This document shows positions 8,111 through 63,263 of a stretch of DNA of 64,000 bases, piece by piece. Made by a program: the position numbers and the translations under genes. A model generated the notes under the pieces. The model ran no database searches. It saw nothing but the letters and a program-made list of their open reading frames with translations, and had not been told where the DNA came from. This DNA is from Parcubacteria group bacterium GW2011_GWA2_47_26 (GTDB taxonomy: Bacteria > Patescibacteriota > Patescibacteriia > GWA2-47-26), in assembly GCA_001001705.1 (NCBI GenBank), contig LCOG01000001.1, positions 22,449 through 86,448 of the forward strand, in the 5' to 3' direction. Position 1 is the stretch's first letter. Every line of letters starts with the position of its first letter.

Positions 8111-8112
8111 TG

Positions 8113-8931
8113 TCATGACTTTCTCCCCCTTCCAATAATCCCATTTGGCCCATAGCGCACCTCCGCATTCTTAAGTCCGGCTTGCTTAAACCACTTCCTT
8201 ACCGCGCGGAGCGTTTGCGGATTGTCGTAGCGCGGGGAGTACATATCAAAAGTATCCAGCACCGACCATTCTTTGTGTATGCGATACGGCAGGCCAAGCG
8301 TCGGGTAACTGGCAATAGGAAATAATCTAGTTCCGATTGATCCTAAAAATTTATGCGCAATGACCGCAAATGGAAGGAGCAATGCAACAACCGCGCGTAC
8401 GAGCAAATAAAGCACGCGCGACGGAATCCACCGCGTAAACGGACGCAAAAAATACTTCCACTGCAAACGCGAAAAAATTGTTTTCTTGTACACATCAATT
8501 ACAATCTCCCCGCCCGGTTTTACAAATTTTGTGAGCTCCAGGAATGCGCGTTTTGGATCTGGCGTATGCTGGATTACTCCCAAACAAAGTACTTTATCAA
8601 ATGTCCCAATATTTTTTGGAATATCAAAAATATCCGCACGGAAAAGGTGCAAATTTTTATGATGCCCGTTGTTCGCGCGATTGGCCTCAACCGCCTCGCT
8701 CGAATCAAATGACCAAACCTCCGCACCAGTTGAAAGCAACACTTCCGTAAACCGTCCCGCGCCAGATCCGGCCTCTAAAATTCGCTGACCCTCCATACGC
8801 TCCGGCCAACTCGTCACTAAAAAAAGTCGTTTACGCGATATCGGAAGTCCGACGAAGCTATCCAGCTGGGTTTTGGCATGCTTGAGCCACTGAAATCCGA
8901 AAGAGGTGGTGTAGTTTGCGGTGTTATTCAT
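8113..8931 (-). CDS. Class I SAM-dependent methyltransferase
   Basis: ILEAGSGAGRFTEVLL (motif I) and VLCLGVIQH. Followed directly by an intrinsic terminator. Confidence 0.8.
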   Translation of the reverse strand: MNNTANYTTSFGFQWLKHAKTQLDSFVGLPISRKRLFLVTSWPERMEGQRILEAGSGAGRFTEVLLSTGAEVWSFDSSEAVEANRANNGHHKNLHLFRADIFDIPKNIGTFDKVLCLGVIQHTPDPKRAFLELTKFVKPGGEIVIDVYKKTIFSRLQWKYFLRPFTRWIPSRVLYLLVRAVVALLLPFAVIAHKFLGSIGTRLFPIASYPTLGLPYRIHKEWSVLDTFDMYSPRYDNPQTLRAVRKWFKQAGLKNAEVRYGPNGIIGRGRKS

Positions 8932-8960
8932 AAATCTGTGTACGAATTACTAATCTTGTC

Positions 8961-9004
8961 CGAATATTACGAATAAATTGTTCAATCCAAATTCGTAGTA
9001 TTCG
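8961..9004. promoter_or_regulatory. 14-nt inverted repeat straddling the stop codon of the DUF2079-like gene
   Basis: cgaatattacgaat (8961-8974) and attcgtagtattcg (8991-9004) match at 13 of 14 positions as complements, 16 nt apart. Further attcgta-like words lie nearby at 8942 and 9012. Confidence 0.3.
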
Positions 9005-10673: not shown

Positions 10674-10675
10674 AC

Positions 10676-10900
10676 TTATTTCTCTTTTTTCGCATCTCGT
10701 TTCCAATGTGCTTTTATCCATCTTGAAATTTGCTTCCAGAAAAAGAGTATCGGACTTAAAACAAACGCCAACGCGGCGATCCCAATAAGATACACCGCTT
10801 GAAAAAGCTGACCGGCAAGGCCAAGATCAATGTAGGCCTGCGCCTGATTTGGAACAAACACAATAATCAAAAGGGTCATTAGAGCTAAACATTTTCTCAT
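10676..10900 (-). CDS. Small secreted/membrane protein (signal peptide + one TM)
   Basis: 74 aa. MRKCLALMTLLIIVFVPNQAQA, then a hydrophobic helix and a basic tail. Fits the gap between neighbours exactly. Confidence 0.35.
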   Translation of the reverse strand: MRKCLALMTLLIIVFVPNQAQAYIDLGLAGQLFQAVYLIGIAALAFVLSPILFFWKQISRWIKAHWKRDAKKEK

Positions 10901-10916
10901 ATGTTATTGGCTACAA

Positions 10917-13196
10917 TTAAAAATGTTCAAAATTTCTTATGGCTCTCGTTTTCTCAATCCTCTCGCGTACTAATTTCATAAGCTCATCCCTCACTTCAGT
11001 TTTCTTTTGGGCAATATTATTATCTTCATTCGGGTCAAGTTTCAAATTGAATAATTCCACCTGCGGATAGCGCTCAAGAAAACGCTGCGCGCTTTCCGGC
11101 GGCTCTACTTCTTCAAAACGACGATTCGCGTAAAAACGATAGATCAATTTGTAATCACCTTTATACACCAAAAATGTAATTGACTGCGTTGCAGCATCGA
11201 TTTTTGCGAATGACAAACCTTCCGGTATGGCTTGGGAAAATGTCGTGCGCTCAATTGGTTTGTCGCGTTCCTGCTCAATATACTTCCAAAGCGACTCGCC
11301 CTCCATCCAACCCGGTACTGGCATACCAAGCGTATCAAGGATCGTTGGCATTAAATCCACATGCGAGGCAAGGGTTTTAATTCTCCGGCCCTCCGTCTGT
11401 CCGGGCATATGAATTAAGAGCGGAATTCGCGCGGTTTGCTCATACATGACACCAGTGAGATGAAACATATCTCCTTTTTCAAAGGCCTGACCATGATCGG
11501 TACTAATGATCAGCATGGAATTATCAAACAGCCCATCGCTTTTAAGAATTTCTAAAAATCTGCCCAGCGCCACGTCTGCCCCGGCAATATATTCCTCGGA
11601 CATCAGTCGCAGTTTACGCGCCAAGGGCTCGTACTTTGGATTAAGCGGCGGCCCATTCCACACCAACTCCTGCATTACATTTTCATATTTGTAATCGCCG
11701 GGTTCATCAAGAAACTGTTCGTCAGCACGAATATACGGTTGATGCGGCGCCCACTGATGCATCCACAGGAAAGCGGGTTGGTCTTTATTTTCCAAATAAT
11801 CCAGCGTGGGAGCATACTTGTCGCTTCCCGGCCCTGCGACACGCTCTGGAGGAGAGTACGTTTCGCTTGATATGCTTGATATTTTGACTAATCGCCCAAA
11901 CCACGAAATGTACTTGGAAAAATAATCGTTGTGCAACGCCGCTATCCATCCCGGAGCAATAGGATATCCTCGTCCGGAAATACTCAAAAAATACTCCTGC
12001 AGTTGAGTGCCATACACATTCTTTCTCAAGCGCTCGGGCAAATCATTGTACGCGGAAAGAAAGGTAAAAATCTTTCCGCGTCCTAAGTGCAAATTAGGCC
12101 CATATAAGACATATACACTATCCCAACCCAATTTATCAAACACGCGCGGCATATAACCCACCACATTGCCAGCGGCAAGATTTACCCCATACTGGGAAGA
12201 CCTTACACCGTAATAATGCATTCCCGTAATCATGGCAGTCACACTTTGCGTGGTATTGTCCGCTTCAGCATGCATATTTTCAAACACATAACTGGTTTTT
12301 GCTAGCTCATCCATTACCGGCGTGGTCGGCCGCTCGTTGCCATAAAGCGACATGCGGTTTGCGCTCAAACCGTCAAAAGTAACCATGATAATATTCTGTA
12401 CTTCTCCTTTTTTCCGGGCTTGATCTTGTACGGAAGTAATTTCTATTTCTGTAACTGGATTTAAGCCAACAAATGCATACGCGGTGCCAGCAATGCTGAC
12501 AAACAAAATTATTGTCGCAGGAACAACAAACAAACGAAAACGGCTTAACACAGTATGAATCTTTTTCCTATACAAAACGTAATATACCAAAAACATGCCG
12601 AGGCCGTATTTTTGAAAAAAAGCGGTTTTATCCGGATGATGTTCAATCACAATACTTAAAAGAATACTGCTGACAATCAGTGGTGCAAAAGAGAACACAA
12701 GGATTCCTATTGTTTTTGGCAGATCATCCTCAATAGATTTGCGCAAAACAAAATAGTGTAAGATTAAGAAAATGACAAAGATACCCAAGAGCACAGCCAA
12801 ACTTATAATCCGCGCGTCACGATCAAAATGCTGGGCTGGTATAGTATTGCGAATCCACAACCGCAAAAATATAAAATTAATTTGTAAGACAAAAACGAAG
12901 ATGGTAAACTGCAATATCTTAACAATCCACGGAGTCAATCGGATGCTAATCCTCTGTACCAACACAGTAATACTAGAAAACAAAATACTAATTATGCCTG
13001 CGGCGACAAAGAAAAACAAACCAAGCATGAATGCGGTATTAATGATTCTGCGGATATCTATCTGATACACCAGCGAATTCCACCTAAAAAGCAAATCCAG
13101 CGTCACAAAATATACGAGCGCCAAAAAAATCTGCGCGGCAAATAAGAGAAACAGTCTGCGGATCTTAATTTTTGTCGAAGTTTCACTACCGGGCAT
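10917..13196 (-). CDS. Membrane-anchored alkaline-phosphatase/sulfatase-fold enzyme (LtaS/EptA-like phosphotransferase more likely than a sulfatase)
   Basis: About 8 N-terminal TM segments. NIIMVTFDGLSANRMS; ADNTTQSVTAMITG, with Thr where sulfatases have CxPxR; ISTDHGQAF; FNLKLDPNEDNNIA. The start is ambiguous: ATG 13196 or 13244, and the track start 13262 is TTG. Confidence 0.8.
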   Translation of the reverse strand: MPGSETSTKIKIRRLFLLFAAQIFLALVYFVTLDLLFRWNSLVYQIDIRRIINTAFMLGLFFFVAAGIISILFSSITVLVQRISIRLTPWIVKILQFTIFVFVLQINFIFLRLWIRNTIPAQHFDRDARIISLAVLLGIFVIFLILHYFVLRKSIEDDLPKTIGILVFSFAPLIVSSILLSIVIEHHPDKTAFFQKYGLGMFLVYYVLYRKKIHTVLSRFRLFVVPATIILFVSIAGTAYAFVGLNPVTEIEITSVQDQARKKGEVQNIIMVTFDGLSANRMSLYGNERPTTPVMDELAKTSYVFENMHAEADNTTQSVTAMITGMHYYGVRSSQYGVNLAAGNVVGYMPRVFDKLGWDSVYVLYGPNLHLGRGKIFTFLSAYNDLPERLRKNVYGTQLQEYFLSISGRGYPIAPGWIAALHNDYFSKYISWFGRLVKISSISSETYSPPERVAGPGSDKYAPTLDYLENKDQPAFLWMHQWAPHQPYIRADEQFLDEPGDYKYENVMQELVWNGPPLNPKYEPLARKLRLMSEEYIAGADVALGRFLEILKSDGLFDNSMLIISTDHGQAFEKGDMFHLTGVMYEQTARIPLLIHMPGQTEGRRIKTLASHVDLMPTILDTLGMPVPGWMEGESLWKYIEQERDKPIERTTFSQAIPEGLSFAKIDAATQSITFLVYKGDYKLIYRFYANRRFEEVEPPESAQRFLERYPQVELFNLKLDPNEDNNIAQKKTEVRDELMKLVRERIEKTRAIRNFEHF

Positions 13197-40970: not shown

Positions 40971-42473
40971 TTAATGATTTAATGATCCAATAAACGATCC
41001 ATATATTACCTCAACTTCTCTTTTAGTCGCGGGTTCTCTATCTTTGGAAGCGTAATCACTCCAATGCAAATCTATCGACGAGGCTTTGAGTGCAGCAAGA
41101 TACCTCTTACCGTCTTCTTGCCGTCGCTTTTTGTTCTCCTCTGTATCTTCACTACAGCATATGTTAAACAAAAGGGGTCTTAATTCTTTCCATGACTCAA
41201 CCACATGCACTGATGGCAAAAAATTAAAGTTATTATGAATACCAAACGAGATAACGGGTATACCCAGTATGACTGCCTCGGTGCCCACTGTGCTGGCAAT
41301 GACTATTACACATCGTGCATTCCTTGCTATATCGAGCGCATAAGATGAAGGCGAAACCATTACTATATTAGGAATACCCAAAATAGTTGAATAAAAATCC
41401 CTCGGCCTCCTACTTATACCTCCAAGATGATCTTTGACAACAAGAATTGTGCCCGCCGGCAGATTCTTCGCTATAAGTTCAATAAGAGCCAATTGCTCAT
41501 TAAATTCAGGACTTAACAAACTCAAAGCCGTCTCTGGCTCAATGTGCAAAGGATAAAAAACATACGACATGCCGCGTAGTCCCTTATGATCTATAAATGT
41601 ATCACTTCCCAAATTTCTTACAGCTCTATACGTTCTATATGCAGATTTAATTTTCTCAAATAATTTATAATTGCTCATCGTGACTATTTTTTTATATTTC
41701 CGGCTGGCATGAATTCTCAATTGTAACAAAATTTCTTCTACAAAAGCAATGGTTGAGCCAGCGCGTTTGAACCTCTGATAGTTTTTATCTGACCAGGGAA
41801 GCCTTTTTAGATCACGAATTTCTTCAGCATTCACAAGTCGGTCGGGATCTTCAATTATCTTAAACTTCTGTTTGATTTCCGGAAATGAATAATATTCGTC
41901 AGTCCCCCAATGAAAATATGACTGATACTTAGCAAAGGTAAAAGCGCGAATCGGAATGCCACGTCCCCTTGCTACCACTGAACAAGTTTTTCCTACAACT
42001 CCGGAAGATATTCCGATAATTAAGTCCGGGTTGATCTTGTCAAAACAGTCCTCCCAAAAACGAATAGCTTTGTTAAACATGTTTACCGATTTTATATATG
42101 TTGCGTTATTGCTTAATTCAGATTTAGGATGCCCTATTCCGCCAGCAGAACAACCACGCCCCAGATGCCTATCGCTTTGTAGCGTATCCATAACGAGCGT
42201 CTTGTATCTATGCTCATATTCTCTTGCTTCTTTATATATTTCCTCAACTTCGTTAGAACAATCATTATATTCGGAGGGGAAGAAATCAAGAGTAATAAAA
42301 GTATCTATCGTCCCCATGCGATCCTGTTTTTTCCAATATGCAATATCTTTGGGAGTATTACAAATGAAATGAATCTTCGCTTCCAATTGTTTCTTTATCT
42401 CCTCGGCAAGAGGAACCCATAACCAATTATAATTTGACAGTCCCCAAATAACGACATTTTTTATTGCTTGCAT
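40971..42473 (-). CDS. Capsule_synth (KpsS/KpsC-like) family protein
   Basis: 500 aa. FYPLHIEPETAL, ILVVKDHLGG and IASTVGTEAVILGIPVISFG resemble the KpsS/KpsC pattern. Confidence 0.6.
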   Translation of the reverse strand: MQAIKNVVIWGLSNYNWLWVPLAEEIKKQLEAKIHFICNTPKDIAYWKKQDRMGTIDTFITLDFFPSEYNDCSNEVEEIYKEAREYEHRYKTLVMDTLQSDRHLGRGCSAGGIGHPKSELSNNATYIKSVNMFNKAIRFWEDCFDKINPDLIIGISSGVVGKTCSVVARGRGIPIRAFTFAKYQSYFHWGTDEYYSFPEIKQKFKIIEDPDRLVNAEEIRDLKRLPWSDKNYQRFKRAGSTIAFVEEILLQLRIHASRKYKKIVTMSNYKLFEKIKSAYRTYRAVRNLGSDTFIDHKGLRGMSYVFYPLHIEPETALSLLSPEFNEQLALIELIAKNLPAGTILVVKDHLGGISRRPRDFYSTILGIPNIVMVSPSSYALDIARNARCVIVIASTVGTEAVILGIPVISFGIHNNFNFLPSVHVVESWKELRPLLFNICCSEDTEENKKRRQEDGKRYLAALKASSIDLHWSDYASKDREPATKREVEVIYGSFIGSLNH

Positions 42474-42488: not shown

Positions 42489-43445
42489 TTACATTTTGTA
42501 ATCAAAATAATCCAATATTGGTTTTAAATGCTTTCCAATAAAGGATATTTCACTCTCATTCAGTACTTGTATTTTTCTACTAAGAACTGATCTGCCCACT
42601 CCTGTTAATTGCTCAAAAGAACTACCGTATCCATGGGGCTGCCCACATAATGTAGGCTTTAACAGATTGTCGGTAAATTCAATACCTACGTGATCAGCGA
42701 TATCTCTCATCGTTTTTTCCGGCTCTGCCACTAAATCTTCAAATCTTATAAGCACTGTCCGCTCATCCACTATCTCGGATCGGTTATTCCAAAAAAAATA
42801 ATAATCCTTAATAACCTCGGCAAAATTAATCGGATGCAACGTTTTACTTTTCCTGTTTGTTCTGTCAAGTAACGAGTCTCTACTAAACATTCGGGCTTTC
42901 TTAAGAGAGTCAAGTGCATGATAAGGGTTTCTTATAAAAAAAATACATCTACAATTTTTAAGGTTAACTTTTTTTGTAGACAGTATGCTCCTTCCCATAT
43001 CTCCTATAAACATATACGCCGTGTCACGCTCGGAATAATCTGTAGGGAAGGAGTGCGCATAAGCGTTAACTAAACAATTCCAAATCTCGGGAATGCTCGT
43101 GCATCTCTTTAAACCAGCTAAATGATCAAGGAACACTTCCTTTTTAAAGTGAAGATCTACCTCATATTTTACAGGAGCAATTCCGCGAATGACTCCACCG
43201 AGCCAAGGTAATATATCACGGTCAATAAAAGACTCCATTAAATCATCTCTACCAAAGTGCTTAAATGCATCAATAAATAAAGACTCCTGACCTCTTTCTT
43301 GATAATTATATACATGCTCCCAAAAAAAAGCCTCATCAATAAAATGAATAATACCGGGCTGAGAATCAAATAAACGAGTAAGTAGCGTCCCTCCGGATCT
43401 TTTAGGTCCAGAAACAATTATTGTCTTATCAATAGACTTACTCAT
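42489..43445 (-). CDS. Sulfotransferase
   Basis: IIVSGPKRSGGTLLTRLF is a 5'-PSB-like loop. FFIRNPYHALDS is a 3'-PB-like motif. Confidence 0.75.
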   Translation of the reverse strand: MSKSIDKTIIVSGPKRSGGTLLTRLFDSQPGIIHFIDEAFFWEHVYNYQERGQESLFIDAFKHFGRDDLMESFIDRDILPWLGGVIRGIAPVKYEVDLHFKKEVFLDHLAGLKRCTSIPEIWNCLVNAYAHSFPTDYSERDTAYMFIGDMGRSILSTKKVNLKNCRCIFFIRNPYHALDSLKKARMFSRDSLLDRTNRKSKTLHPINFAEVIKDYYFFWNNRSEIVDERTVLIRFEDLVAEPEKTMRDIADHVGIEFTDNLLKPTLCGQPHGYGSSFEQLTGVGRSVLSRKIQVLNESEISFIGKHLKPILDYFDYKM

Positions 43446-45256: not shown

Positions 45257-46476
<1,220 letters not shown>

Positions 46477-46480
<4 letters not shown>

Positions 46481-50194: not shown

Positions 50195-51235
50195 TCAAAA
50201 CCAAGATTGTATGTTGCCTTTTGGAAAAGGTTCTTTTAATTCTTGCGCGTTTACTCCGTCAATAAATACATCCTCCTTATAACTAATAGCTAAGCCCTTT
50301 CTTATAGCCGGCGCAGTGATCGTCTCCCCAAGATAGTAATTACGGAGCACCATCTCCGGTTCATTAAAGCCAAAGTGAGCACGGACCGATGTTGTTCCAG
50401 AAAAACGCGCATTAAATTCAAATGGCACTGGGCCATCCTTACCGATCATCAACTGAACATTGAGCGACCCCAAACTCGACAACATTGCTCCAATTTGCCG
50501 CATAAGCACATGGAGTTCAGGAAGCTCCACTACCTCAACAATCCATGAACTTCCGGAACGCAATACTCGCCGCGCAGTAAAAGGACCAAAAAGCTTACCA
50601 TCCTTACACCGAAATATACTGCAAGTATATTCACTGCCAAGCTCCGCCTTAGGCATAGCAATACATTTTTGCAAAAGAGGATTTGATACAGTGGGAAACA
50701 ATCGCGCTAACTCTCCTTCATTATGAAGGATGTGCAATCCACGTGAAGATGTTCCTGATCTGGGTTTTAGTATTACTGGATACCCCCACTCATTTGCTTT
50801 TACAATCGCATCTTCCGCGCTCTTAGGAAGATATGATGGGGCGCAGGGCAATCCATGTTCGCGTAAAAATTCTGCCGTAAGCCATTTATCATCAGCGATA
50901 CGTACCGTTTCAAGCGGTGAAACCACAACCAGCGCGCCCGTTTCCTTTTCAATCTCTTGTTTATATTCGGCAAAAAACATCAAATCAAATTCAGAACCAA
51001 CCATTACTACCTGAATATGTTTCTCTTTTAGCGCATTCATAATCTTCTCCAAAGATCCATCTTCTTCCACTTTTGGGACAATCACCGCCTCATCCGCGCG
51101 ATATAATCCCGCATTCAAGGGGTGGATATCGGCGGCAACGATGATAACTGGCAACGAAGAAATCCGCAAAGATTTCATAATCCCTTGTCCCACAATGCTT
51201 CCTGCTCCCGTAACGAGGACTCTTATCTTTTCCAT
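50195..51235 (-). CDS. ATP-grasp ligase
   Basis: IRVLVTGAGSIVGQGIMKSL, YPVILKPRSGTSSRGL, FEFNARFSGT. Confidence 0.75.
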   Translation of the reverse strand: MEKIRVLVTGAGSIVGQGIMKSLRISSLPVIIVAADIHPLNAGLYRADEAVIVPKVEEDGSLEKIMNALKEKHIQVVMVGSEFDLMFFAEYKQEIEKETGALVVVSPLETVRIADDKWLTAEFLREHGLPCAPSYLPKSAEDAIVKANEWGYPVILKPRSGTSSRGLHILHNEGELARLFPTVSNPLLQKCIAMPKAELGSEYTCSIFRCKDGKLFGPFTARRVLRSGSSWIVEVVELPELHVLMRQIGAMLSSLGSLNVQLMIGKDGPVPFEFNARFSGTTSVRAHFGFNEPEMVLRNYYLGETITAPAIRKGLAISYKEDVFIDGVNAQELKEPFPKGNIQSWF

Positions 51236-51948
51236 ATAGCTTTTTTACCTTCTAAGATTCTTACAACATTGCCCACTTCTTCAAAGTTGTGCGCATCAGA
51301 CCCAAGAGAAATCCTTGCCCCCATCTCGCGGCACCATTTTATAAATTTCCACGGATCTGGATGATAGTATGCATTAATCTCAAAGGCAACGCCGGTTTTT
51401 GCCGCCTTTTTAATCAGCTCCCTAATACTTGCTTCTGAAGGAATTACATCATAACGCTTATAACACATGCCAAATGGATGGGCAAGCACTTGCACGCAAG
51501 GGTTATCTAATGCCGCCATTGCTAACCGAAGCTCAATTTCTTCAGCTTCCTTTTTTGAAACCTCTTCAAAGGAACGCACCCCTCCCTTTCCGTCTGGAAA
51601 TCGATGAACGCTTGCAAGAACAAGCTCGCATTGAGAAAAAACGCTTTTTACACAATCTAGGGTCCCGTCAAAATCCTTTATTCTCGTTTCTACTCCAACC
51701 AACGCTCGGCATTTTTCTTTAGGCAGCGCGTGAACTTCTTCGGCAAATTTATAAAACCAGCTTTCGCTCACTGCGCGCGCATGTTCGCTAAAAAGTACTT
51801 GGGTAAGTCCTCGCGCAATCGCTGCCTCATGTATCGTATTCACACTGTGCGCGCCATCTGTCCACTTTGTATGCATGTGATAATCTGTTCGCGGCACATT
51901 GTGCTTAGTAAAATCCTCTTGGAGTTTGGACAAAGAATCAAGGTTCAT
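51223..51948 (-). CDS. PHP-family phosphoesterase (histidinol-phosphatase-like)
   Basis: DYHMHTKWTDGAHS, FSEHA, ASVHRF, LAHPF, LGSDAH. Confidence 0.75.
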   Translation of the reverse strand: MNLDSLSKLQEDFTKHNVPRTDYHMHTKWTDGAHSVNTIHEAAIARGLTQVLFSEHARAVSESWFYKFAEEVHALPKEKCRALVGVETRIKDFDGTLDCVKSVFSQCELVLASVHRFPDGKGGVRSFEEVSKKEAEEIELRLAMAALDNPCVQVLAHPFGMCYKRYDVIPSEASIRELIKKAAKTGVAFEINAYYHPDPWKFIKWCREMGARISLGSDAHNFEEVGNVVRILEGKKAIWKR

Positions 51949-56891: not shown

Positions 56892-58487
56892 TCATGGATA
56901 CATAAATTGTTCAACAAACTCCATATTAGGCATTGCTGGCGTAGCGGCGAGGGCCGAAAGTAGATCTTCCTCGCCAAAAATAAGGCGGTTGTGTTCATCA
57001 AAATTCATATACACTATCCGACAACGTTTTTCTAACCGCTCTCGAACATCAATATCCAAACGTGCCTGATCATCTCGCACTAAAAATCCAATCACTGGCT
57101 TATTGGTGCATAAAGCAATGGCAAAGGCGGTGGTTCTAATGTTACCAAATATACACGCACCCGAATCCGTGAGAGCTTGCTCAAAATCACCCGTAGCAAT
57201 TGTAGCGACCGTATCGAAAATTCCTTTTATCTCTCTCATCCGGTCAGGATGCGGCTTATATACCACCTGATATCCAACCTTACGGAGAACATCAATAAGC
57301 CGCAGTTCTAAATCAAGCTGCATTAACGAAAACCGAGCATTTCCAAGATTTTTTCTCCATGGATTATGACAATCGCCAACAACCAGTATTTTTTTAATGC
57401 GGGTTGGGAGCGATTCTTTAGAAAATTTTTGGCGCATCTTCAGATACATATCACTTCCACCGGAGATAATCTTGAGTGGACGCTCTGGAAACAGCCGGTG
57501 GCGGACATACATTCTTTCAAATAATTTAGCGCTGCCCCGGGTATATGCCACAAATTCGTCAGAAATAGCAAATTCGGAAAATGTATAGGTAGGGCTATCG
57601 AACATTGCCATAGCGCCTCCGTGTGTCAAGCTGGTTACTTTTCCACCGGCGTCTCGTACTGCAATTGCCATGGCGCTCAACAGTGGATCCCGAATATGTT
57701 GGGTTATCAAATGGAGTTGCTTCCTTGATTTAACATAACGACGTACCGAGGTTAGCAGTATCGCGGCATCTTCAAGGTGCGATTTGGTAAAGTAAAGAAG
57801 ATAGTGGAGATGCTTAGGCGTGAGGATAATTTGATGACGTGCGGCGACCGCTTGAACTTCTTCTATAATAGATTGGGAAAGTGTTGACAAAATATCTTTA
57901 AACTCTGATGATATATCGCGTCTGCGCATCCAATCTTCTTTGCAATAGGCAATCGACACTGCATAGGGAAGCGAGCGTATATAAGTCTTTATAAACTCAT
58001 TGGGGGCTCCGTACGTAATTCCCTTTTTTCGGCCGAAAAAAAGAGACAAGAATTTTTCTGGTCGCCAATTGTGTTGCAGATTTCGAAGCAACCTCCGCAG
58101 CTGAATCTTCATCATTTTCATTCTGCCCGTGGATGCGTATGTAGTATTGATCAATCGCTTGTCAAGCGTATCGCGAATGATGTCGCAATACCACAGTGAT
58201 TTTTCAGTATAAAGTGGGGCACTGTTTCTTCGAGAAATTTCAAGAATAACTTTCTGCGCATGTAAAAAATGATAATACTCAACTAAGAGTATACTGGCTT
58301 TAATAAGCAATGTATCACGATTTGTTTTTGATTCCATGGCAATACGCCTAGCCATGCACGCTTCAAGGTCGGCACACAATGCAAAAAAATCATTATCCGA
58401 AACCGGCCAAAAGAATTCCTTTTGCCAACGGGCAACTCCGTATTTCTTGACGGCATTGATATCAACAGGAAAAAAAATATCATTCAT
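56892..58487 (-). CDS. Hypothetical protein; the C-terminal half looks like a GT-B domain with an HP motif (candidate nonulosonic acid or capsule transferase)
   Basis: 531 aa. ILVVGDCHNPW, VVYKPHPDR, IRTTAFAIALCTNKPVIGF. The N-terminal ~330 aa are unrecognised. Confidence 0.4.
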   Translation of the reverse strand: MNDIFFPVDINAVKKYGVARWQKEFFWPVSDNDFFALCADLEACMARRIAMESKTNRDTLLIKASILLVEYYHFLHAQKVILEISRRNSAPLYTEKSLWYCDIIRDTLDKRLINTTYASTGRMKMMKIQLRRLLRNLQHNWRPEKFLSLFFGRKKGITYGAPNEFIKTYIRSLPYAVSIAYCKEDWMRRRDISSEFKDILSTLSQSIIEEVQAVAARHQIILTPKHLHYLLYFTKSHLEDAAILLTSVRRYVKSRKQLHLITQHIRDPLLSAMAIAVRDAGGKVTSLTHGGAMAMFDSPTYTFSEFAISDEFVAYTRGSAKLFERMYVRHRLFPERPLKIISGGSDMYLKMRQKFSKESLPTRIKKILVVGDCHNPWRKNLGNARFSLMQLDLELRLIDVLRKVGYQVVYKPHPDRMREIKGIFDTVATIATGDFEQALTDSGACIFGNIRTTAFAIALCTNKPVIGFLVRDDQARLDIDVRERLEKRCRIVYMNFDEHNRLIFGEEDLLSALAATPAMPNMEFVEQFMYP

Positions 58488-59032
58488 GTTAAATCGGGGT
58501 TCAATTTACCAAATAGTAATTCGTCAATATACGAATCTCGAAATCGAACATGCTGCTTTTTCCTTCCCTCTTCAAAAAATCCTAGCTTGAGAAAGGCTTT
58601 TATTGAACCGATGTTATTTTCGTAGGCACCGGCCGTCACCTTATGAAGATGCAGCGTACCAAACGCGTATTCCACAAGAAGTCGGATCGCTTGAGTGGCA
58701 AATCCTCTCCCCCAAGAATTTTGATCTCCAATCATAATGCCGATACTTCCCACGCTATGATGAGGATCAATCGGCCCCAACTTGATATTGCCAATATGCT
58801 CATTGGTGTCTTTTTTCACAATCGCGAACAAATACACCGCGGGGTCTTTTATAACTTTCTCAATATAAGCCCGAACACTCTCTTTCGTATGTACTATAAA
58901 TCTACTCTCAAGAAATTGATTCACCTCCGGAATATTAAGCCAATGCACATATGTATCCGTAGCGTCGGCCGGCTGAATCGGACTAAGATAGATGGTCTCG
59001 CCCTCGAGGCGTAATTGACTATTATCGTGCAT
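58484..59032 (-). CDS. GNAT N-acetyltransferase (RimJ/RimL-like)
   Basis: Start taken at ATG 59032 (MHDNSQLRLEGETIYLSPIQ). ATG 59047 is also possible, and the track start 59086 is GTG. IGIMIGDQNSWGRGFATQAIRLLVEYAF. Confidence 0.75.
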   Translation of the reverse strand: MHDNSQLRLEGETIYLSPIQPADATDTYVHWLNIPEVNQFLESRFIVHTKESVRAYIEKVIKDPAVYLFAIVKKDTNEHIGNIKLGPIDPHHSVGSIGIMIGDQNSWGRGFATQAIRLLVEYAFGTLHLHKVTAGAYENNIGSIKAFLKLGFFEEGRKKQHVRFRDSYIDELLFGKLNPDLT

Positions 59033-60209
59033 AAGGCAAAAGCGCATCGTATACTTGCTTGAATAGAAAATTCTTTTCCTTATCACTTAGTGATATATCT
59101 GTATGAGAAGGGGTAAGTATTTTTTTTCTCAACAACTCGCGCTCATACTCTGTTTCCCAAGTATCGTAGTTATTTCTCCATCCTACCGCTCGCGCATCAT
59201 CTTCTTTTAAAAACGACATCACCGCTTCAGTCGGTAGTCCCCCTTGATATTCCTTGGTTTCATATCCAAATAGGCGCATTTCCGGATCGCATACAAACTC
59301 AATGAATTCCACTGTTCCTTTTGGAAGATATTCTTTCCAAGCTTCAATGCTTTCGGTATACACTCCTTTTTCGGGAACTTTAAAATTACTGTGTACTTTC
59401 CATTCCGTACCTTTCAAGGGACGAAATTTATCCGTATCAAGCATGGCCTCATCATAGTCCACCCCAAGAAATACGCATAATTCCTTAATTATTCTTGCCG
59501 GATCGGATGCTAAATCTTCATATCGTAACAAATATATCCGGCCGTGGAGAGCTGGGTCCTGCGTAAGCATGTGCGCGAATGCCGCATGCTTTCTCCAGTG
59601 ACGAGCGAATGAATACATAAGCGGAACCTTTCCCGCTTTTGAGGGATCCCTTTCTCTTAACTTAAGAGATGAGGCCATGGCCGCACGCGGATCACGTATT
59701 ACGATAATACATTTTGAATTCGGAAATGCTCGAGCCAAAATCGGTAAAAATTCTATTACCCAATTATCATTGAACCCCACCCATGCAGCGCTCTCGGCTC
59801 CGTATGCTTTTTCCAAAATATGGAGACCGCTGGCAAATAACTGCTCGTAGGTAGCTCCTTGAAGTTCTTTCAAAAATGGAGTTACCTCTTGTGCCGCCAA
59901 ACTCATTCTTGCGGACAACTCCGGAACGAGGCGCTCCAATTCTCCGGAGGGAAGTGAAAACCTCAAATCACTGCATTGTATTGCCTTCATCATTGCGATC
60001 TTGTCATCCGAAAAGTAATAATCGTTTAATGGCTGCGCCACGCTAAAACCGGGGTCAATTTTATTTTGAAGGACTGCTGTACGAAAAGAACGAAACAACG
60101 GCAAAAAAGGATCACTCGCCATTTTCACTTCTACATTGATACTCAACATGCGAGCAAAAAAAGTGGTTCCACCTCTTGAAGTTCCCACTGAAAAAAGCGG
60201 ATTACTCAT
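59022..60209 (-). CDS. Sulfotransferase
   Basis: FSVGTSRGGTTFFARML (5'-PSB-like) and IIVIRDPRAAMAS (3'-PB-like). ATGA overlap with the cysC fusion. Confidence 0.75.
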   Translation of the reverse strand: MSNPLFSVGTSRGGTTFFARMLSINVEVKMASDPFLPLFRSFRTAVLQNKIDPGFSVAQPLNDYYFSDDKIAMMKAIQCSDLRFSLPSGELERLVPELSARMSLAAQEVTPFLKELQGATYEQLFASGLHILEKAYGAESAAWVGFNDNWVIEFLPILARAFPNSKCIIVIRDPRAAMASSLKLRERDPSKAGKVPLMYSFARHWRKHAAFAHMLTQDPALHGRIYLLRYEDLASDPARIIKELCVFLGVDYDEAMLDTDKFRPLKGTEWKVHSNFKVPEKGVYTESIEAWKEYLPKGTVEFIEFVCDPEMRLFGYETKEYQGGLPTEAVMSFLKEDDARAVGWRNNYDTWETEYERELLRKKILTPSHTDISLSDKEKNFLFKQVYDALLPYAR

Positions 60210-61006
60210 AGATGACTTTTAATAAATACGTACAGCGATGTTACCGCATCGTTTTGATTTTGTACAGCGGTATCAATTAAGAGATCGGGCGACGTTGGTG
60301 GCTCATAAGGATTGGTCGGGCTATACCCAATCATTGAATCAATCTCTCCGGCAACCGCTTTGGCGTACAATCCTTTTGTATCTCGTTCCATACACTTCTC
60401 AAGTGGACATCTTACATAGACTTCGGCGAAATCAGATCCAATAATGTGTTTAACCGCCTCTCGATCTTCTCGATACGGCGAGATGACCGGAACTAAAACA
60501 ATCTCAACTTCTTCTTTTTTTTCTTTCGCAAGTCGAGCAATCCCCAGATTATTTTCTCGAATATCTTCACGAGAAAATCCTAATTTCCGGTGAACCGTTT
60601 CTCTCACGGCATCACCATCAAGTACGATCACGCGTTTACCGTCTGCTTCAAGACAGTTTTTCACTGCATGGGCGAGAGTGGTTTTTCCCGATCCGGAAAG
60701 ACCCGTAAGCCATACTACTAAGCCATGACGATTTTTTTTAGCATGTTCAGATTTTATGATTCGTATGTAGAGAATAATACAAATAAACAAAAGTACAAGA
60801 GCTAACGCATATTTAATTTGCAGCGGCGGTTGCTGAATTCTTGTAGCGTATGCCAAAGCAATAATGTTGGCAAAAAAAGACAATAACAATAACAGAAAAC
60901 TCAGTCCTTTGACTGTTTTAGTCTTAATAGTCTTAACAATCTGGGGGATGAAGCAAACGGTAAATAAGAATGTTGCCATCCAACCGAGAATTTCAGTGAG
61001 GGACAT
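60206..61006 (-). CDS. cysC: Fusion: PQ-loop/SemiSWEET-like three-helix membrane domain + adenylylsulfate (APS) kinase
   Basis: N-terminal FLFTVCFIPQIVKTIKTKTVKGLSF plus two more helices. Then WLTGLSGSGKTT, LDGDAVR, ISPYREDR, KGLYAKAVAGEI. Confidence 0.85.
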   Translation of the reverse strand: MSLTEILGWMATFLFTVCFIPQIVKTIKTKTVKGLSFLLLLLSFFANIIALAYATRIQQPPLQIKYALALVLLFICIILYIRIIKSEHAKKNRHGLVVWLTGLSGSGKTTLAHAVKNCLEADGKRVIVLDGDAVRETVHRKLGFSREDIRENNLGIARLAKEKKEEVEIVLVPVISPYREDREAVKHIIGSDFAEVYVRCPLEKCMERDTKGLYAKAVAGEIDSMIGYSPTNPYEPPTSPDLLIDTAVQNQNDAVTSLYVFIKSHL

Positions 61007-61007
61007 A

Positions 61008-63263
61008 TTATTCTTTTACAAATACCTCCTCTCCTTGCTCAATCGCCTTTTTGATCATCTGCGCGATTTCCGGGCGAATGAACCACTCCGGCGGCAGCTC
61101 CCCGCTCTCAAATAATTTGCGTGCCTGCGTTCCGCTAATCTGAAGTCGATCTTCCGGCGGATGCGCCATCGCTTCCCATTCATGCATATGAGATCCGAGA
61201 TTCTCTGAGTAAAAAATTTGACCAAAACGAATTGGCGTGATTCCAAGATCAGGGAACCGGTCAAAGATTTCGTGCGACGCGGTCGGAGCATAAAAATCCC
61301 CGACACCGGTATGATCACGTCCGACTATAAAATGACTACAGCCAAAATTCTTCCGACAAATAGCCGTAAATAATGCCTCACGCGGGCCGGCATAGCGCGA
61401 GAAGGTTGCGAGCGTACCAAAAATCACTTTATTTTTTGGATAAAAATGCTGCATCATCAGTTCGTAACCGCGTATGATATAGGACGCTTGAAAATCCCCG
61501 GCCTTCTTTTTCCCAATAACCGGATGCACAAACAATCCGTCGCAAAAATTATCCTCCAAGGCTTTGAGCTGAATATATTCATGCGAGCGATGGATCACAT
61601 TGCGCGTATGGAACCCCACGACTTTGCGCCAGCCGCGCTCCGCAAACAATCGTCGCGTCTGTGCTGGCGTGAGTTCATAGGCTTTCGTGGACGTCTCTCG
61701 CCGAGAGAGTAAATCAATCGTACCGCCCAGAAGAACCGGTTTCATGTTCTTTACTCGTCGAACCCCGGGATGATCATTGCTAAGCGTGCCGTAGAGTTTT
61801 TCCGCAAAAAACTCTTTGTCGATCGTGAAGATATCCTCTAGGCGCAAAAAAGCCATCGGCAGATCCTGACGATCGGCGTATAGCCCGATCGTCTGCCCAA
61901 TTTTAAGATTTTTCGCCTGCTCTTGATTGACATCAAGTATCACTGGAATCGGCCAAATAACGCCGCTTGGCAGACGCATAGTATTAAGCACACTCTCAAC
62001 CTCGCCTCGGGTCATAAATCCTTGCAATGGACTAAACGTCCCGATGCCGATCTGTTCTACATCCATTTGCGCTAATTCATCCAATTGAATTCTTGACAGA
62101 GCTGAAAAATCGGTGTTGGGAATAGTTTTCAGCATGCGATCGACAAGGACTCCACCATGTGGTGGCACCAAAAGCGTGCCATATGAAGATATTGTCAGGT
62201 ACTCGTTCATCTTCAGATGGGCAACCAAATCTTGATCTCTCGTATTGAGAATTGGTTCCGGAACCGCATTGCCCACATGCGAAATAATTTTCTGTAGTGT
62301 CTGGACACAGTCAAATGGATATTTTCCGATTGCCGTTTCAGCAGCCAGGGCAAGTCCGCCTGCTCCGTCCAGGATGCAGCTGACAATATCATGCACCTCG
62401 GCCCGTGTTGGTTTTGGTTTATCTACCATTGTCTCGAGCAAGTTTGTCGCCACAAACACCTCTTTCCCGTGTTCTCTGGCCGCACTGATAATAATTTTTT
62501 GCAACAAAGGCACTTTTTCAATCGGTACTTCTTTACTCAAATCTCCTCGATCAATCAACAGATAATCTGACGCCTTGATGATCTCATCCAAGTTGTGGAG
62601 AGCGTCGACACATTCAATTTTTGAAATAATCTTCATCCGTCCTTGCGTTGCACGCCGCACCTCTTCCACGAATGCGCGCGAACGCATAAACGATGCTGCA
62701 ATCGTACTCACGCCTTTTTGTAAACCGATCTCAATGCCGCGATAATCTTTTTCTGTAAGGCAAGGCAAATTCCACCTACGGTGCGACGATGGATCAACTA
62801 TAACACCTTTATTACTTCCGAGCGCACCGGCAGAGATGGCCGTTGCCAACACACATCCACTATCACGCTTAGAAACATCAGTCACTTGCAATACGAGTGT
62901 TCCAAAATCCAGATGTAAAATATCTCCCAACTCGAGCTGAAAAACGATCGGGAAGGGACGAAGTGCCAGGGCATCGCCGCCACTGGTCACTTCATCGGCG
63001 CATAATCGTACCGTGCCCCCCTCTTCAATCTCAATCTTTTCACCCTGCACATTTCCACTGCGAATCTGTGACCCTTCTGTATCCAACACAAATGGAATCC
63101 CCACGTCTTTAGCAAGATCGATAAAATTCTCAAGATCTTCAAGACTCGAGTGAGACATGTTCACCCGCACAAATGATACGCCTTGATCTTTGAGTTTTTG
63201 CAGTGCCTCGCGGCTGCGTGTTGCGGGACCGAGAGTGACAATAATTGCAGGTTTGCGTTCCAT
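61008..63263 (-). CDS. sat: Fusion: pyruvate-kinase-like A/B-domain barrel + full ATP sulfurylase (sulfate adenylyltransferase)
   Basis: N-terminal half: IIVTLGPATRS, FVRVNMSHSS, VLDTEGSQIRSG, KIISKIECVDAL, LIDRGDLSKEVP, LALAAETAIGKYP. C-terminal half: LVPPHGG, GFHTRNVIHRSHE, VHPVIGKKKAGD, IVGRDHTGVG. Single uninterrupted 751-aa ORF. Confidence 0.85.
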   Translation of the reverse strand: MERKPAIIVTLGPATRSREALQKLKDQGVSFVRVNMSHSSLEDLENFIDLAKDVGIPFVLDTEGSQIRSGNVQGEKIEIEEGGTVRLCADEVTSGGDALALRPFPIVFQLELGDILHLDFGTLVLQVTDVSKRDSGCVLATAISAGALGSNKGVIVDPSSHRRWNLPCLTEKDYRGIEIGLQKGVSTIAASFMRSRAFVEEVRRATQGRMKIISKIECVDALHNLDEIIKASDYLLIDRGDLSKEVPIEKVPLLQKIIISAAREHGKEVFVATNLLETMVDKPKPTRAEVHDIVSCILDGAGGLALAAETAIGKYPFDCVQTLQKIISHVGNAVPEPILNTRDQDLVAHLKMNEYLTISSYGTLLVPPHGGVLVDRMLKTIPNTDFSALSRIQLDELAQMDVEQIGIGTFSPLQGFMTRGEVESVLNTMRLPSGVIWPIPVILDVNQEQAKNLKIGQTIGLYADRQDLPMAFLRLEDIFTIDKEFFAEKLYGTLSNDHPGVRRVKNMKPVLLGGTIDLLSRRETSTKAYELTPAQTRRLFAERGWRKVVGFHTRNVIHRSHEYIQLKALEDNFCDGLFVHPVIGKKKAGDFQASYIIRGYELMMQHFYPKNKVIFGTLATFSRYAGPREALFTAICRKNFGCSHFIVGRDHTGVGDFYAPTASHEIFDRFPDLGITPIRFGQIFYSENLGSHMHEWEAMAHPPEDRLQISGTQARKLFESGELPPEWFIRPEIAQMIKKAIEQGEEVFVKE

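What the first reader, a model, noticed from the sequence alone, without database searches (positions are those of the whole stretch)
61008..63263. Pyruvate-kinase-like barrel fused in one ORF to a complete ATP sulfurylase
The 751-aa ORF is uninterrupted. Residues ~1-340 carry the pyruvate kinase A/B-domain signatures: IIVTLGPATRS, FVRVNMSHSS, VLDTEGSQIRSG, KIISKIECVDAL, LIDRGDLSKEVP, VFVATNLLETM and KPTRAEVHDIVSCILDGAGGLALAAETAIGKYP. The PK C-terminal regulatory domain is replaced by a full-length sulfate adenylyltransferase (LVPPHGG, GFHTRNVIHRSHE, VHPVIGKKKAGD, IVGRDHTGVG). Sulfate adenylylation is energetically uphill. The next step, APS kinase, is encoded 1 nt downstream and releases ADP. 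A PEP-driven ADP-to-ATP domain in cis would therefore be a plausible way to pull PAPS synthesis, and I am not aware that it has been described. Alternatively, the PK-like barrel has been recruited for a different phosphoryl transfer.
Basis: partly seen in the sequence, partly recalled or inferred. Interest (0 to 1): 0.85.

Follow-up and report, generated by a model that had tools for sequence, protein, structure and literature searches.

The report
Pyruvate-kinase barrel fused to ATP sulfurylase
A real, widespread but apparently undescribed enzyme joins a pyruvate-kinase-type domain to the enzyme that activates sulfate. This probably lets cells use phosphoenolpyruvate to keep making PAPS, the universal sulfate donor, for sulfated surface sugars and antibiotics.

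Summary
ORF 61008-63263 (minus strand, 751 aa) has a pyruvate kinase A+B barrel (aa 3-320), no PK C-domain, then PUA_2 and ATP-sulfurylase domains. A PQ-loop-APS kinase gene starts 1 nt downstream, followed by a sulfotransferase, inside a 64-kb glycan cluster.

It is not an assembly artefact. An identical protein occurs on independent assemblies, and the architecture recurs in at least 80 species-representative genomes: CPR bacteria, DPANN archaea, Chloroflexota, Acidobacteriota and others, plus the cultured monobactam producer Flexibacter sp. ATCC 35103.

All canonical PK catalytic residues are invariant. The barrel is still a distinct subfamily (E114, Q117, D292, S297, N328), which also occurs fused directly to APS kinase, fused to CBS, or alone beside APS kinase or sulfotransferase genes. 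APS kinase is fused or linked in 56 of 80 loci. The sulfurylase half carries His in place of the sulfate-binding Gln.

Best explanation (about 0.6): a built-in PEP-driven ADP-to-ATP module that supplies ATP and removes inhibitory ADP during PAPS synthesis. This mirrors the PK/PEP system added to PAPS synthesis in vitro. No paper describing it was found.

The parts
61008..63263 (-). Whole PK-barrel/PUA_2/ATP-sulfurylase fusion ORF (751 aa)
   Evidence: It is 100% identical to deposited protein P0001, named 'Pyruvate kinase [Parcubacteria group bacterium GW2011_GWC2_45_7]'. AlphaFold2 model: pLDDT 88, pTM 0.86.
62304..63257 (-). Pyruvate kinase A (TIM barrel) plus B (lid) domains, aa 3-320. Catalytic residues are R33, N35, S37, H38, D61, T62, R68, K152, K215, E217, D241, T273, E309. 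The subfamily signature is E63, Q66, C218, D238, S243, N274.
   Evidence: Pfam PF00224 E 1e-72. PDB phmmer: best hit 2e28, E 1.7e-58. Residue conservation. Foldseek matches to PK chains cover only this half, TMq about 0.40.
62769..63056 (-). B (lid) domain, approximately aa 70-165, an all-beta insert carrying R68 and K152 at its borders
   Evidence: Beta strands 77-157 in the AF2 model and the alignment to PK structures. The borders are approximate.
62166..62303 (-). Linker, aa 321-366: the end of barrel helix 316-333, an extra helix 336-352, then a lower-confidence coil. It takes the place of the PK C-domain.
   Evidence: AF2 secondary structure, with pLDDT 52-78 for residues 331-380. Y355 and L365 are invariant and L356 nearly invariant in alignment A1.
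61704..62165 (-). PUA_2 domain (ATP sulfurylase domain I), aa 367-520
   Evidence: Pfam PF14306 E 1e-42.
61047..61682 (-). ATP-sulfurylase catalytic domain, aa 528-739. Motifs: F-H552-T-R-N-V-I-H558-R-S-H561 (QXRNxxHxxH with Gln replaced by His), G584-K-K-K-x-G-D590, and G648-R-D-H-T652-G.
   Evidence: Pfam PF01747 E 4e-77. Best PDB hits: 8a8d E 3e-103 and 1v47. Foldseek TMt 0.91-0.93. Motif statistics.
60206..61006 (-). Downstream partner gene, 266 aa: PQ-loop/SemiSWEET-like 3-TM domain (aa 4-83, nt 60758-60997) fused to APS kinase (aa 95-245, nt 60272-60724). It starts 1 nt after the fusion's stop codon.
   Evidence: Pfam APS_kinase E 2e-50 and PQ-loop E 2e-13. TIGR00455 scores 187 against a cut-off of 139. 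Junction sequence.
59022..60209 (-). Sulfotransferase (395 aa), the PAPS consumer. Its start overlaps the end of the APS kinase gene by 4 nt.
   Evidence: Pfam Sulfotransfer_3 E 3e-20 and Sulfotransfer_1 E 5e-13.
42489..43445 (-). Second sulfotransferase (318 aa) in the same co-directional glycan cluster
   Evidence: Pfam Sulfotransfer_3 E 4e-14.

Best explanation
The gene encodes a PAPS-synthesis enzyme with a built-in ATP-regenerating module. The C-terminal Sat-type ATP sulfurylase makes APS and PPi from ATP and sulfate. The APS kinase, translationally coupled 1 nt downstream here and fused to the same chain in many relatives, converts APS plus ATP to PAPS plus ADP. The N-terminal pyruvate-kinase A/B barrel has lost its allosteric C-domain. 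It uses phosphoenolpyruvate to convert that ADP back to ATP on the spot. The net reaction becomes sulfate + ATP + PEP -> PAPS + PPi + pyruvate. The proposed benefit is that the strongly exergonic PK step keeps local ATP high and ADP low. That relieves the dead-end APS kinase-ADP-APS complex and so pulls the unfavourable sulfurylase equilibrium. The PAPS feeds sulfotransferases that decorate surface glycans. In this window that is a nonulosonic-acid/glycan cluster; in Flexibacter it is probably a monobactam antibiotic. What is shown: the domain architecture, conservation of the catalytic residues of both halves, the genomic linkage to APS kinase and sulfotransferases, and the recurrence across taxa. 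What is inferred: that the barrel catalyses the canonical PEP + ADP reaction, that the kinetic benefit is ADP removal and ATP supply, and that the proteins form a complex.
For: Architecture.

PK residues: R72, N74, S76, H77, R119, K206, K269, E271, D295 and E363 (rabbit numbering) are 120/120 conserved among the fusion homologues, and D112, T113 and T327 are 119/120. They are also kept in deeper clades.

ATPS motifs HxxH, GRDH and GxxKxxD are intact, and the NCBIfam sulfate adenylyltransferase models score above cut-off.

Rosetta-stone linkage: among 80 species-representative loci, APS kinase is fused in 23, lies within 100 nt in 22 and within 10 kb in 11. 24 of the 120 best homologues are 800-1000 aa, and those carry an APS-kinase Pfam domain.

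The same PK subfamily is fused directly to APS kinase (P0124, P0183) in glycan/sulfotransferase clusters with no ATPS annotated within 3-6 kb. It also occurs as a stand-alone barrel 3 nt upstream of a stand-alone APS kinase.

The neighbour census shows glycan biosynthesis and sulfotransferases among the recurrent families, with no sulfate-reduction genes among them. The window cluster has two sulfotransferases.

Biochemical precedent: PAPSS1 makes practically no PAPS in vitro without PK/PEP because of the dead-end enzyme-ADP-APS complex (PMC9885120). PK + PEP + pyrophosphatase are added to CysCDN for in-vitro sulfonation (PMC11143521).

The AF2 model is confident, with pTM 0.86, which is consistent with a defined inter-domain arrangement.
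Against: No enzymology exists for any member.

The barrel is not a typical PK. It has family-invariant substitutions next to the active site (K114E, E117Q, A292D, G297S, Q328N, N272C/S/T). These could change cation dependence or substrate.

The partner fused most often is ATP sulfurylase, which produces PPi rather than ADP. 24 of 80 loci show no APS kinase within 10 kb, 4 of them with truncated flanks.

Thermodynamically, a free cellular PK would give the same net pull, so the advantage of fusion must be kinetic or local, and that is unproven.

The sulfurylase's sulfate-binding Gln is replaced by His, in loops that PMC3779200 describes as strictly conserved. The anion chemistry may therefore also be non-standard.

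Whether these genomes also carry a separate canonical PK could not be tested.
Confidence: 0.6

Rival explanations
1. The PK-type barrel has been recruited for a different phosphoryl transfer. Its remodelled pocket (E114, Q117, D292, S297, N328) would then use a different acceptor or donor than ADP/PEP, for example another nucleotide of the PAPS cycle or another enol-phosphate. The chemistry would be new rather than simple ATP regeneration.
For: The substitutions are invariant or nearly so across the PK-ATPS, PK-APSK, PK-CBS and stand-alone forms, and they are absent from canonical 460-480-aa PKs. Position 292 precedes the Mg-ligand D295 and position 328 follows the proton donor T327. The 113/114/117 combination fits neither the K+-dependent nor the K+-independent covariation pattern described for PKs (PMC4374775; abstracts). 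The fused sulfurylase also has an altered sulfate pocket.
Against: Every residue known to bind PEP phosphate, Mg2+, K+ and the nucleotide phosphates, together with the proton donor, is retained. That is hard to explain unless enolpyruvate-phosphate-to-nucleotide chemistry is kept. APS kinase remains tightly associated, so the barrel does not replace it. Gln and other non-Glu/Lys residues at position 117 occur in archaeal PKs of a branch within the K+-independent cluster whose characterised members are active PKs.
Confidence: 0.2
2. The barrel is simply the organism's housekeeping glycolytic pyruvate kinase that happens to be fused to Sat, for example for co-expression or because the sulfurylase replaces the C-domain as an oligomerisation or regulatory module. 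It would have no specific role in PAPS synthesis.
For: CPR and DPANN genomes are minimal, and the archaeal PKs in one survey were single-copy genes (PMC4374775). No second PK is seen in the 64-kb window or within 10 kb in the 80 loci.
Against: The fusion is sporadic: 241 candidate loci among 185,579 species genomes, on a scan with narrow peptide patterns. It is scattered by horizontal transfer. It occurs in large-genome Chloroflexota (a 10.4-Mb contig), Acidobacteriota and a cultured Bacteroidota member, which are expected to have ordinary PKs (expected, not tested). It is embedded in glycan or natural-product clusters rather than glycolytic contexts. The same barrel subfamily is tied to APS kinase or sulfotransferase genes whatever its fusion state.
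Confidence: 0.06
3. The barrel is catalytically silent and acts as a PEP/ADP-sensing regulatory or scaffolding domain. This would be analogous to the inactive APS-kinase-like domain of fungal ATP sulfurylase or the inactive sulfurylase-like domain of some APS kinases.
For: Degenerate domains have been recruited as regulators or scaffolds repeatedly in this pathway (PMC13213808). Such degenerate sulfurylase-like domains are seen in neighbouring genes of Chloroflexota loci.
Against: In those precedents the catalytic motifs are lost. Here every catalytic residue is invariant over sequences only 38-63% identical overall, which indicates selection for catalysis.
Confidence: 0.05
4. The fusion is an assembly chimera or hides a frameshift between two separate genes.
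For: The window comes from a metagenome-assembled genome, and reads could not be mapped.
Against: An identical protein occurs on 9 contigs, with NCBI and JGI records shown. More than 120 homologues have the same order of domains. 80 species genomes carry it, including a complete chromosome (CP070780.1) and an isolate genome. Composition is smooth across the junction. The AF2 model is confident and continuous.
Confidence: 0.01

Closest known systems
Bifunctional and trifunctional PAPS synthases (animal PAPSS1/2 ATPS-APSK; Aquifex Sat-CysC, PDB 2gks; stramenopile APSK-ATPS-pyrophosphatase)
   Same: Sulfate-activation enzymes are joined on one chain, and in the stramenopile case a third domain removes an inhibitory by-product (PPi) (PMC13213808). 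23 of 80 relatives of the window protein are likewise ATPS-APSK on one chain.
   Different: The extra domain is a pyruvate-kinase barrel, not a pyrophosphatase. It would act on ADP/ATP rather than PPi. The domain order is PK-ATPS(-APSK). In the window itself the APS kinase is a separate gene. The PK module is not listed among the known architectures in that 2026 overview.
Canonical pyruvate kinase (EC 2.7.1.40; e.g. G. stearothermophilus 2e28, E. coli PykF, rabbit M1)
   Same: It has the A barrel and B lid, is about 33-38% identical, and retains all catalytic, Mg2+, K+ and nucleotide-phosphate ligands.
   Different: It has no C-terminal allosteric or tetramerisation domain. It carries the distinct invariant signature E114/Q117/D292/S297/N328. 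It scores below the TIGR01064 equivalog cut-off. Its genomic context is sulfation, not glycolysis.
Homodimeric Sat-type ATP sulfurylases (Methanothermococcus thermolithotrophicus 8a8d, Thermus thermophilus 1v47)
   Same: It has the same three-domain fold (Foldseek TMt 0.91-0.93), high sequence similarity (E 3e-103), and intact HxxH, GRDH and GxxKxxD loops.
   Different: It has an N-terminal PK extension. The Gln of QXRN that hydrogen-bonds the sulfate (PMC3779200) is His in all 120 close homologues and in 48 of 49 deeper representatives, and the Ala after GRDH is mostly Thr.
Laboratory PAPS-generating cascades (ATPS + APSK + pyrophosphatase + pyruvate kinase/PEP)
   Same: They use the same set of activities and the same logic: PK/PEP removes ADP and regenerates ATP so that APS kinase is not trapped (PMC9885120; PMC11143521).
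   Different: Those are mixtures of separate enzymes assembled by chemists. Here the combination is encoded naturally on one or two polypeptides.

Membership tests
Pyruvate kinase (PF00224 + PF02887; TIGR01064) | (beta/alpha)8 A domain with inserted B lid domain | tested here: met
   PF00224 covers profile positions 2-328 of 328, E 1e-72. PDB PKs align over aa 1-330. Foldseek matches PK chains.
Pyruvate kinase (PF00224 + PF02887; TIGR01064) | Catalytic and ligand residues R72, N74, S76, D112, T113, R119, K206, K269, E271, D295, T327, E363 (rabbit numbering) | tested here: met
   All are present in the window protein and 119-120/120 conserved in the fusion homologues.
Pyruvate kinase (PF00224 + PF02887; TIGR01064) | C-terminal alpha/beta (allosteric/tetramerisation) domain PK_C | tested here: not met
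   There is no PF02887 hit. Residues after 320 are a linker, PUA_2 and ATP-sulfurylase.
Pyruvate kinase (PF00224 + PF02887; TIGR01064) | Scores above the curated equivalog cut-off | tested here: not met
   TIGR01064 scores 292.2 bits against a cut-off of 306.4.
Pyruvate kinase (PF00224 + PF02887; TIGR01064) | One of the two described covarying K+-site signatures (T113/K114/E117/T120 or L113/Q114/K117/hydrophobic 120) | tested here: not met
   The window has T62/E63/Q66/S69, and the family has T/S113-E114-Q117. The patterns are taken from PMC4374775 and the PMC8835810 abstract.
Pyruvate kinase (PF00224 + PF02887; TIGR01064) | Catalyses PEP + ADP -> pyruvate + ATP | not testable with these tools
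   This needs an enzyme assay.
Sat-type ATP sulfurylase (PF14306 + PF01747; NF003166/TIGR00339) | PUA_2 plus catalytic domain, scoring above curated cut-offs | tested here: met
   NF003166 scores 428 against 387 and TIGR00339 scores 336.2 against 322.95. Pfam E-values are 1e-42 and 4e-77.
Sat-type ATP sulfurylase (PF14306 + PF01747; NF003166/TIGR00339) | HxxH, GRDH and GxxKxxD loops | tested here: met
   H558/H561, G648-R-D-H651 and G584..K587..D590 are invariant or nearly so.
Sat-type ATP sulfurylase (PF14306 + PF01747; NF003166/TIGR00339) | Gln of the QXRN loop that hydrogen-bonds the sulfate | tested here: not met
   The residue is His552. It is FHTRN in 120/120 close homologues and FH[TSG]RN in 48/49 deeper representatives. 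The role of the Gln comes from PMC3779200.
Sat-type ATP sulfurylase (PF14306 + PF01747; NF003166/TIGR00339) | Catalyses ATP + sulfate -> APS + PPi | not testable with these tools
   It is inferred from the motifs and from the linkage to APS kinase and sulfotransferases.
Multifunctional PAPS synthase (ATPS and APSK on one chain) | ATP sulfurylase and APS kinase domains in one polypeptide | tested here: not met
   In the window the APS kinase is a separate gene 1 nt downstream. The feature is met in 23 of 80 related loci and in 24 of the 120 best homologues.

The most novel reading that the evidence does not exclude
The sulfation-associated PK barrel and its partners form a self-contained, PEP-powered PAPS 'synthasome'. 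In it the adenine nucleotide is cycled between the PK, sulfurylase and APS-kinase sites without equilibrating with the cellular pool. PEP rather than ATP would then be the effective energy donor for sulfate activation. The family-specific remodelling of both active sites (E114/Q117/D292/N328 in the barrel; His for Gln in the sulfate pocket) would reflect this coupled or altered chemistry. It would be the first natural example of an ATP-regeneration module hard-wired to a biosynthetic enzyme, spread by horizontal transfer across Bacteria and Archaea and used in antibiotic (monobactam) and glycan sulfation.
Probability: 0.2. Interest if true: 0.8.

Novelty: new variant of a known kind. Interest (0 to 1): 0.65.

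Why it matters
Sulfate activation is thermodynamically uphill. The ways known to pull it are pyrophosphatase, APS kinase and, in CysDN, GTP hydrolysis. A natural PEP-driven ATP-regenerating domain would be a further solution.

It would also define a new functional subfamily of pyruvate kinase outside glycolysis. These proteins are currently named only 'pyruvate kinase' or 'sulfate adenylyltransferase' in the database entries that carry a name.

It would explain how energy-poor CPR and DPANN cells afford sulfated surface glycans. It links to monobactam N-sulfonation in a cultured strain.

In practical terms, PAPS supply limits enzymatic sulfation of heparin, chondroitin and peptides, where PK/PEP is added by hand. 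A single natural PK-ATPS-APSK polypeptide could serve as a ready-made PAPS generator.

Tried and rejected
- **Literature.** Ten full-text searches found no description of a PK-ATP sulfurylase fusion. Papers in subscription journals are not covered, so prior description cannot be fully excluded.
- **Viral contigs.** The scan found no relative.
- **Stand-alone barrels P0133, P0156, P0213, P0222.** Their contigs were too short to be informative. One looks like a fragmented fusion, one sits next to a Wzt ABC exporter, and one next to a sulfatase-family gene.
- **PHP-domain protein at 51223-51948 as the cluster's PAP phosphatase.** It only matches PolX PHP domains and YcdX, so there is no support for this idea.
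- **290-aa Flexibacter ORF as a sulfotransferase.** It has only a non-significant resemblance to heparan sulfate 2-O-sulfotransferase (E 0.066) and no Pfam or NCBIfam hit.
- **Distance between active sites.** It could not be measured because model coordinates are not exposed.
- **RNA genes.** The tRNA and Rfam scans of the window were empty.
- **Rejected functional ideas.** The barrel acting as a PEP-dependent APS 3'-kinase was rejected because APS kinase remains tightly linked. Reverse, dissimilatory operation of the sulfurylase was rejected because of the sulfotransferase/glycan context and the absence of APS reductase among the recurrent neighbours.
Full report
**1. Observation.**

The minus-strand ORF 61008..63263 is uninterrupted and encodes 751 aa.
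- Pfam places a complete pyruvate kinase barrel (PF00224, profile positions 2-328 of 328, E 1e-72) at aa 3-320.
- It places PUA_2 at aa 367-520 and the ATP-sulfurylase catalytic domain at aa 528-739. The PK C-terminal domain is absent.
- The NCBIfam sulfate adenylyltransferase models score above their cut-offs. The full-length PK equivalog falls just short (292 vs 306 bits), as expected when the C-domain is missing.

The next gene (60206..61006) starts 1 nt after the stop codon (GAA TAA T ATG). It is an APS kinase that carries an N-terminal PQ-loop/SemiSWEET-like membrane domain. A sulfotransferase follows it, overlapping by 4 nt.

**2. Not an artefact.**

- GC content is smooth across the junction.
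- The identical protein is deposited as 'Pyruvate kinase [Parcubacteria group bacterium GW2011_GWC2_45_7]'. It is carried on 9 contigs, with the NCBI and JGI records shown.
- All 120 best homologues (54-63% identity) have PK + PUA_2 + ATP-sulfurylase. 24 of them are 800-1000 aa and carry an added C-terminal APS kinase domain, and one has an N-terminal nucleotidyltransferase.
- A scan of one genome per species found 241 candidate loci. The best 80 nearly all cover the full 751 residues.

**3. Distribution.**

The 80 loci come from many lineages:
- CPR/Patescibacteria lineages;
- DPANN archaea (Woese-, Pace- and Nanoarchaeia);
- Chloroflexota (including a 10.4-Mb contig), Acidobacteriota, Actinomycetota, Gemmatimonadota, NC10, Planctomycetota, Myxococcota and Ignavibacteria;
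- a complete Omnitrophota chromosome;
- the cultured [Flexibacter] sp. ATCC 35103.

In a rough neighbour-joining tree the archaeal sequences fall in at least four places among bacterial ones, which indicates horizontal transfer. No viral copies were found.

An exhaustive search with the PK half against 1.84 billion cluster representatives listed the 150 best. 84 of them are PK+ATPS, with or without APSK. They include a deeper tier at 38-45% identity, so the family is old and large.

**4. The PK half.**

It is about 33-38% identical to solved PKs; the best sequence hit is 2e28, E 1.7e-58.
- Residues R72, N74, S76, H77, R119, K206, K269, E271, D295 and E363 (rabbit numbering) are 120/120 conserved in the fusion proteins. 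D112, T113 and T327 are 119/120.
- The barrel also carries its own invariant signature: K114E, P116S/A, E117Q, N272C/S/T, A292D, G297S and Q328N.
- This signature separates it cleanly from canonical 460-480-aa PKs in the same search.
- The 113/114/117 combination fits neither the K+-dependent nor the K+-independent covariation pattern. Non-Glu/Lys residues at position 117, Gln among them, occur in a crenarchaeal PK branch that lies within the K+-independent cluster (PMC4374775).

The AF2 model is confident (pLDDT 88, pTM 0.86). It shows a barrel, a beta lid, and two helices (316-333 and 336-352) leading into a lower-confidence coil before the PUA_2 domain. No PDB chain spans both halves; the maximum TMq is 0.47.

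**5. The sulfurylase half.**

It is closest to the homodimeric Methanothermococcus (8a8d, E 3e-103) and Thermus (1v47) enzymes. The HxxH, GRDH and GxxKxxD loops are intact.

The Gln of QXRN is replaced by His. In characterised enzymes this Gln hydrogen-bonds the sulfate, and the loop is described as strictly conserved (PMC3779200). The His is present in all 120 close homologues and in 48 of 49 deeper representatives. The Ala after GRDH is usually Thr. The meaning of this change is unknown.

**6. Context.**

The whole 64-kb window is one co-directional block on the minus strand. It encodes:
- nonulosonic-acid biosynthesis (NeuB, hydrolysing 2-epimerase, CMP-transferase, two DegT aminotransferases);
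- glycosyltransferases, methyl- and acetyltransferases and an ABC-type ATPase;
- two sulfotransferases.

Across the 80 loci, APS kinase is fused in 23, within 100 nt in 22 and within 10 kb in 11. The recurrent neighbours are epimerase/dehydratases (50 loci), DegT (28), CMP-transferases (19), flippases (14), sulfotransferases (at least 12) and NeuB (10). No sulfate-reduction genes appear among the recurrent families. The PAPS is therefore made for sulfation, not for sulfur assimilation.

**7. The barrel follows APS kinase and sulfotransferases, not only Sat.**

- Signature-type barrels are fused directly to APS kinase (P0124, P0183). These sit in glycan/sulfotransferase clusters with no sulfurylase annotated within 3-6 kb.
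- One is fused to CBS domains, with its start overlapping the end of a sulfotransferase gene.
- One occurs alone, 3 nt upstream of a stand-alone APS kinase.
- In Chloroflexota loci the neighbouring 'ATPS-APSK' gene has lost the QXRN/HxxH and GRDH motifs but keeps its kinase P-loop. That makes it an APS kinase with an inactive sulfurylase-like domain, as in Thiobacillus and Entamoeba.

**8. Mechanism.**

The barrel converts the ADP released by APS kinase back to ATP at the expense of PEP. The net reaction is sulfate + ATP + PEP -> PAPS + PPi + pyruvate.

The rationale has experimental precedent. With human PAPSS1, PAPS is practically absent unless PK/PEP is added, because APS kinase forms a dead-end enzyme-ADP-APS complex (PMC9885120). 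PK, PEP and pyrophosphatase are routinely added to PAPS-generating mixtures (PMC11143521).

The inferred steps are the canonical PK activity, the local kinetic benefit, and physical association with the kinase.

The main rival (about 0.2) is that the remodelled pocket has a changed substrate. The housekeeping-PK, silent-scaffold and artefact readings are unlikely, for the reasons given under the rival explanations.

**9. Cultured test case.**

In [Flexibacter] sp. ATCC 35103 the PK-ATPS-APSK triple fusion (925 aa) overlaps the end of a 290-aa ORF. That ORF follows a C-A-T-C-A-T-TE NRPS and an SbnA-family 2,3-diaminopropionate enzyme.

This strain is the described producer of the monobactam SQ 28,332, and a monobactam BGC (MIBiG BGC0001672) is identified in it (PMC9248904). 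From my own knowledge, monobactams are N-sulfonated and are built from L-Dap by an NRPS thioesterase after sulfonation with PAPS. The fusion is therefore probably the cluster's PAPS supply. I could not verify that this locus is BGC0001672.

**10. Novelty.**

A May 2026 overview of architectures in this pathway lists ATPS-APSK, the pyrophosphatase triple fusion, and the regulatory or inactive domains. It lists no PK fusion (PMC13213808). None of ten searches found one either.

The proteins exist in databases under generic automatic names. I rate it a new variant of a known kind: known catalytic families in an undescribed, widespread and mechanistically suggestive combination.

Noticed in passing
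window 60206-61006 (-); also L007:2391-3311 and small PQ-loop ORFs in L003, L004, L012, L020, L036, L044, L054, L061, L069, L073, L076: The APS kinase downstream of the fusion has an N-terminal PQ-loop/SemiSWEET-like 3-TM domain. A similar fusion, or a separate ~90-108-aa PQ-loop ORF, lies next to PK-ATPS in 12 of 80 related loci. It could be a membrane anchor for PAPS synthesis or a transporter (sulfate? pyruvate?). Its role is unexplained.
   Followed up: partly
L079 ([Flexibacter] sp. ATCC 35103, NZ_MTQF01000013.1) 815-12769: The PK-ATPS-APSK triple fusion lies directly after an SbnA-family enzyme, a C-A-T-C-A-T-TE NRPS and a 290-aa ORF without family hits. The strain is the known producer of the N-sulfonated monobactam SQ 28,332, so this is probably the monobactam cluster with its own PAPS supply.
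   Followed up: partly
L025:2828-4519, L030:14093-15787, L048:4494-6251, L049:9842-11605: In Chloroflexota loci the PK-ATPS gene is paired with an 'ATPS-APSK' protein. Its sulfurylase-like domain has lost the QXRNxxHxxH and GRDH motifs, while the kinase P-loop is intact. It is an inactive sulfurylase-like domain that might dock onto the active PK-ATPS.
   Followed up: partly
window 61047-61682 (-), residues H552 and T652: In the fused sulfurylase the sulfate-binding Gln of the 'strictly conserved' QXRN loop is His, and the Ala after GRDH is Thr, essentially throughout the family. This may alter anion affinity or selectivity.
   Followed up: partly
proteins P0247, P0249, P0007, P0141, P0232: Other architectures occur around C-domain-less PK barrels: Phosphodiest(NPP-type)-PK-PUA_2-ATPS (1151 aa), Phosphodiest-PK (786 aa), nucleotidyltransferase-PK-ATPS (1019 aa), PK-CBS (478 aa) and PK-PK-adenylate kinase (1051 aa). 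PK barrels may be used more generally as fused nucleotide-recycling modules.
   Followed up: partly
window 1-64000: About 55 genes, almost all on the minus strand and tightly packed, with no tRNA or Rfam hit. The annotated part (33-64 kb) is one very large surface-glycan locus, with NeuB, NeuC-like epimerase, CMP-transferase, HisF/HisH-like pair, two DegT, PIG-L deacetylase, FemAB-like protein, a GT1 glycosyltransferase, an ABC-type ATPase and an ATP-grasp protein.
   Followed up: partly
window 56892-58487 (-), 45257-46480 (-), 40971-42473 (-): Three sizeable ORFs (531, 407 and 500 aa) inside the glycan/sulfation cluster have no Pfam hit.
   Followed up: no
window 51223-51948 (-): A PHP-domain protein lies in the cluster. 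I considered it as a possible PAP phosphatase, but it only resembles PolX PHP domains and YcdX (E 7e-12 and 4e-6), so its role is unknown.
   Followed up: partly
L009:4687-7542 and 5 other loci: A ~950-aa protein combining cytidylyltransferase-like, PPDK_N and PEP-utilizer mobile domains recurs near PK-ATPS in 6 of 80 loci. It is another PEP-linked enzyme in these glycan clusters.
   Followed up: no
window 58484-59086 (-): The mechanical ORF for the GNAT gene (200 aa, GTG start) overlaps the sulfotransferase gene by 65 nt. The deposited annotation uses a shorter 182-aa product, so the true start is probably downstream of the one listed.
   Followed up: no
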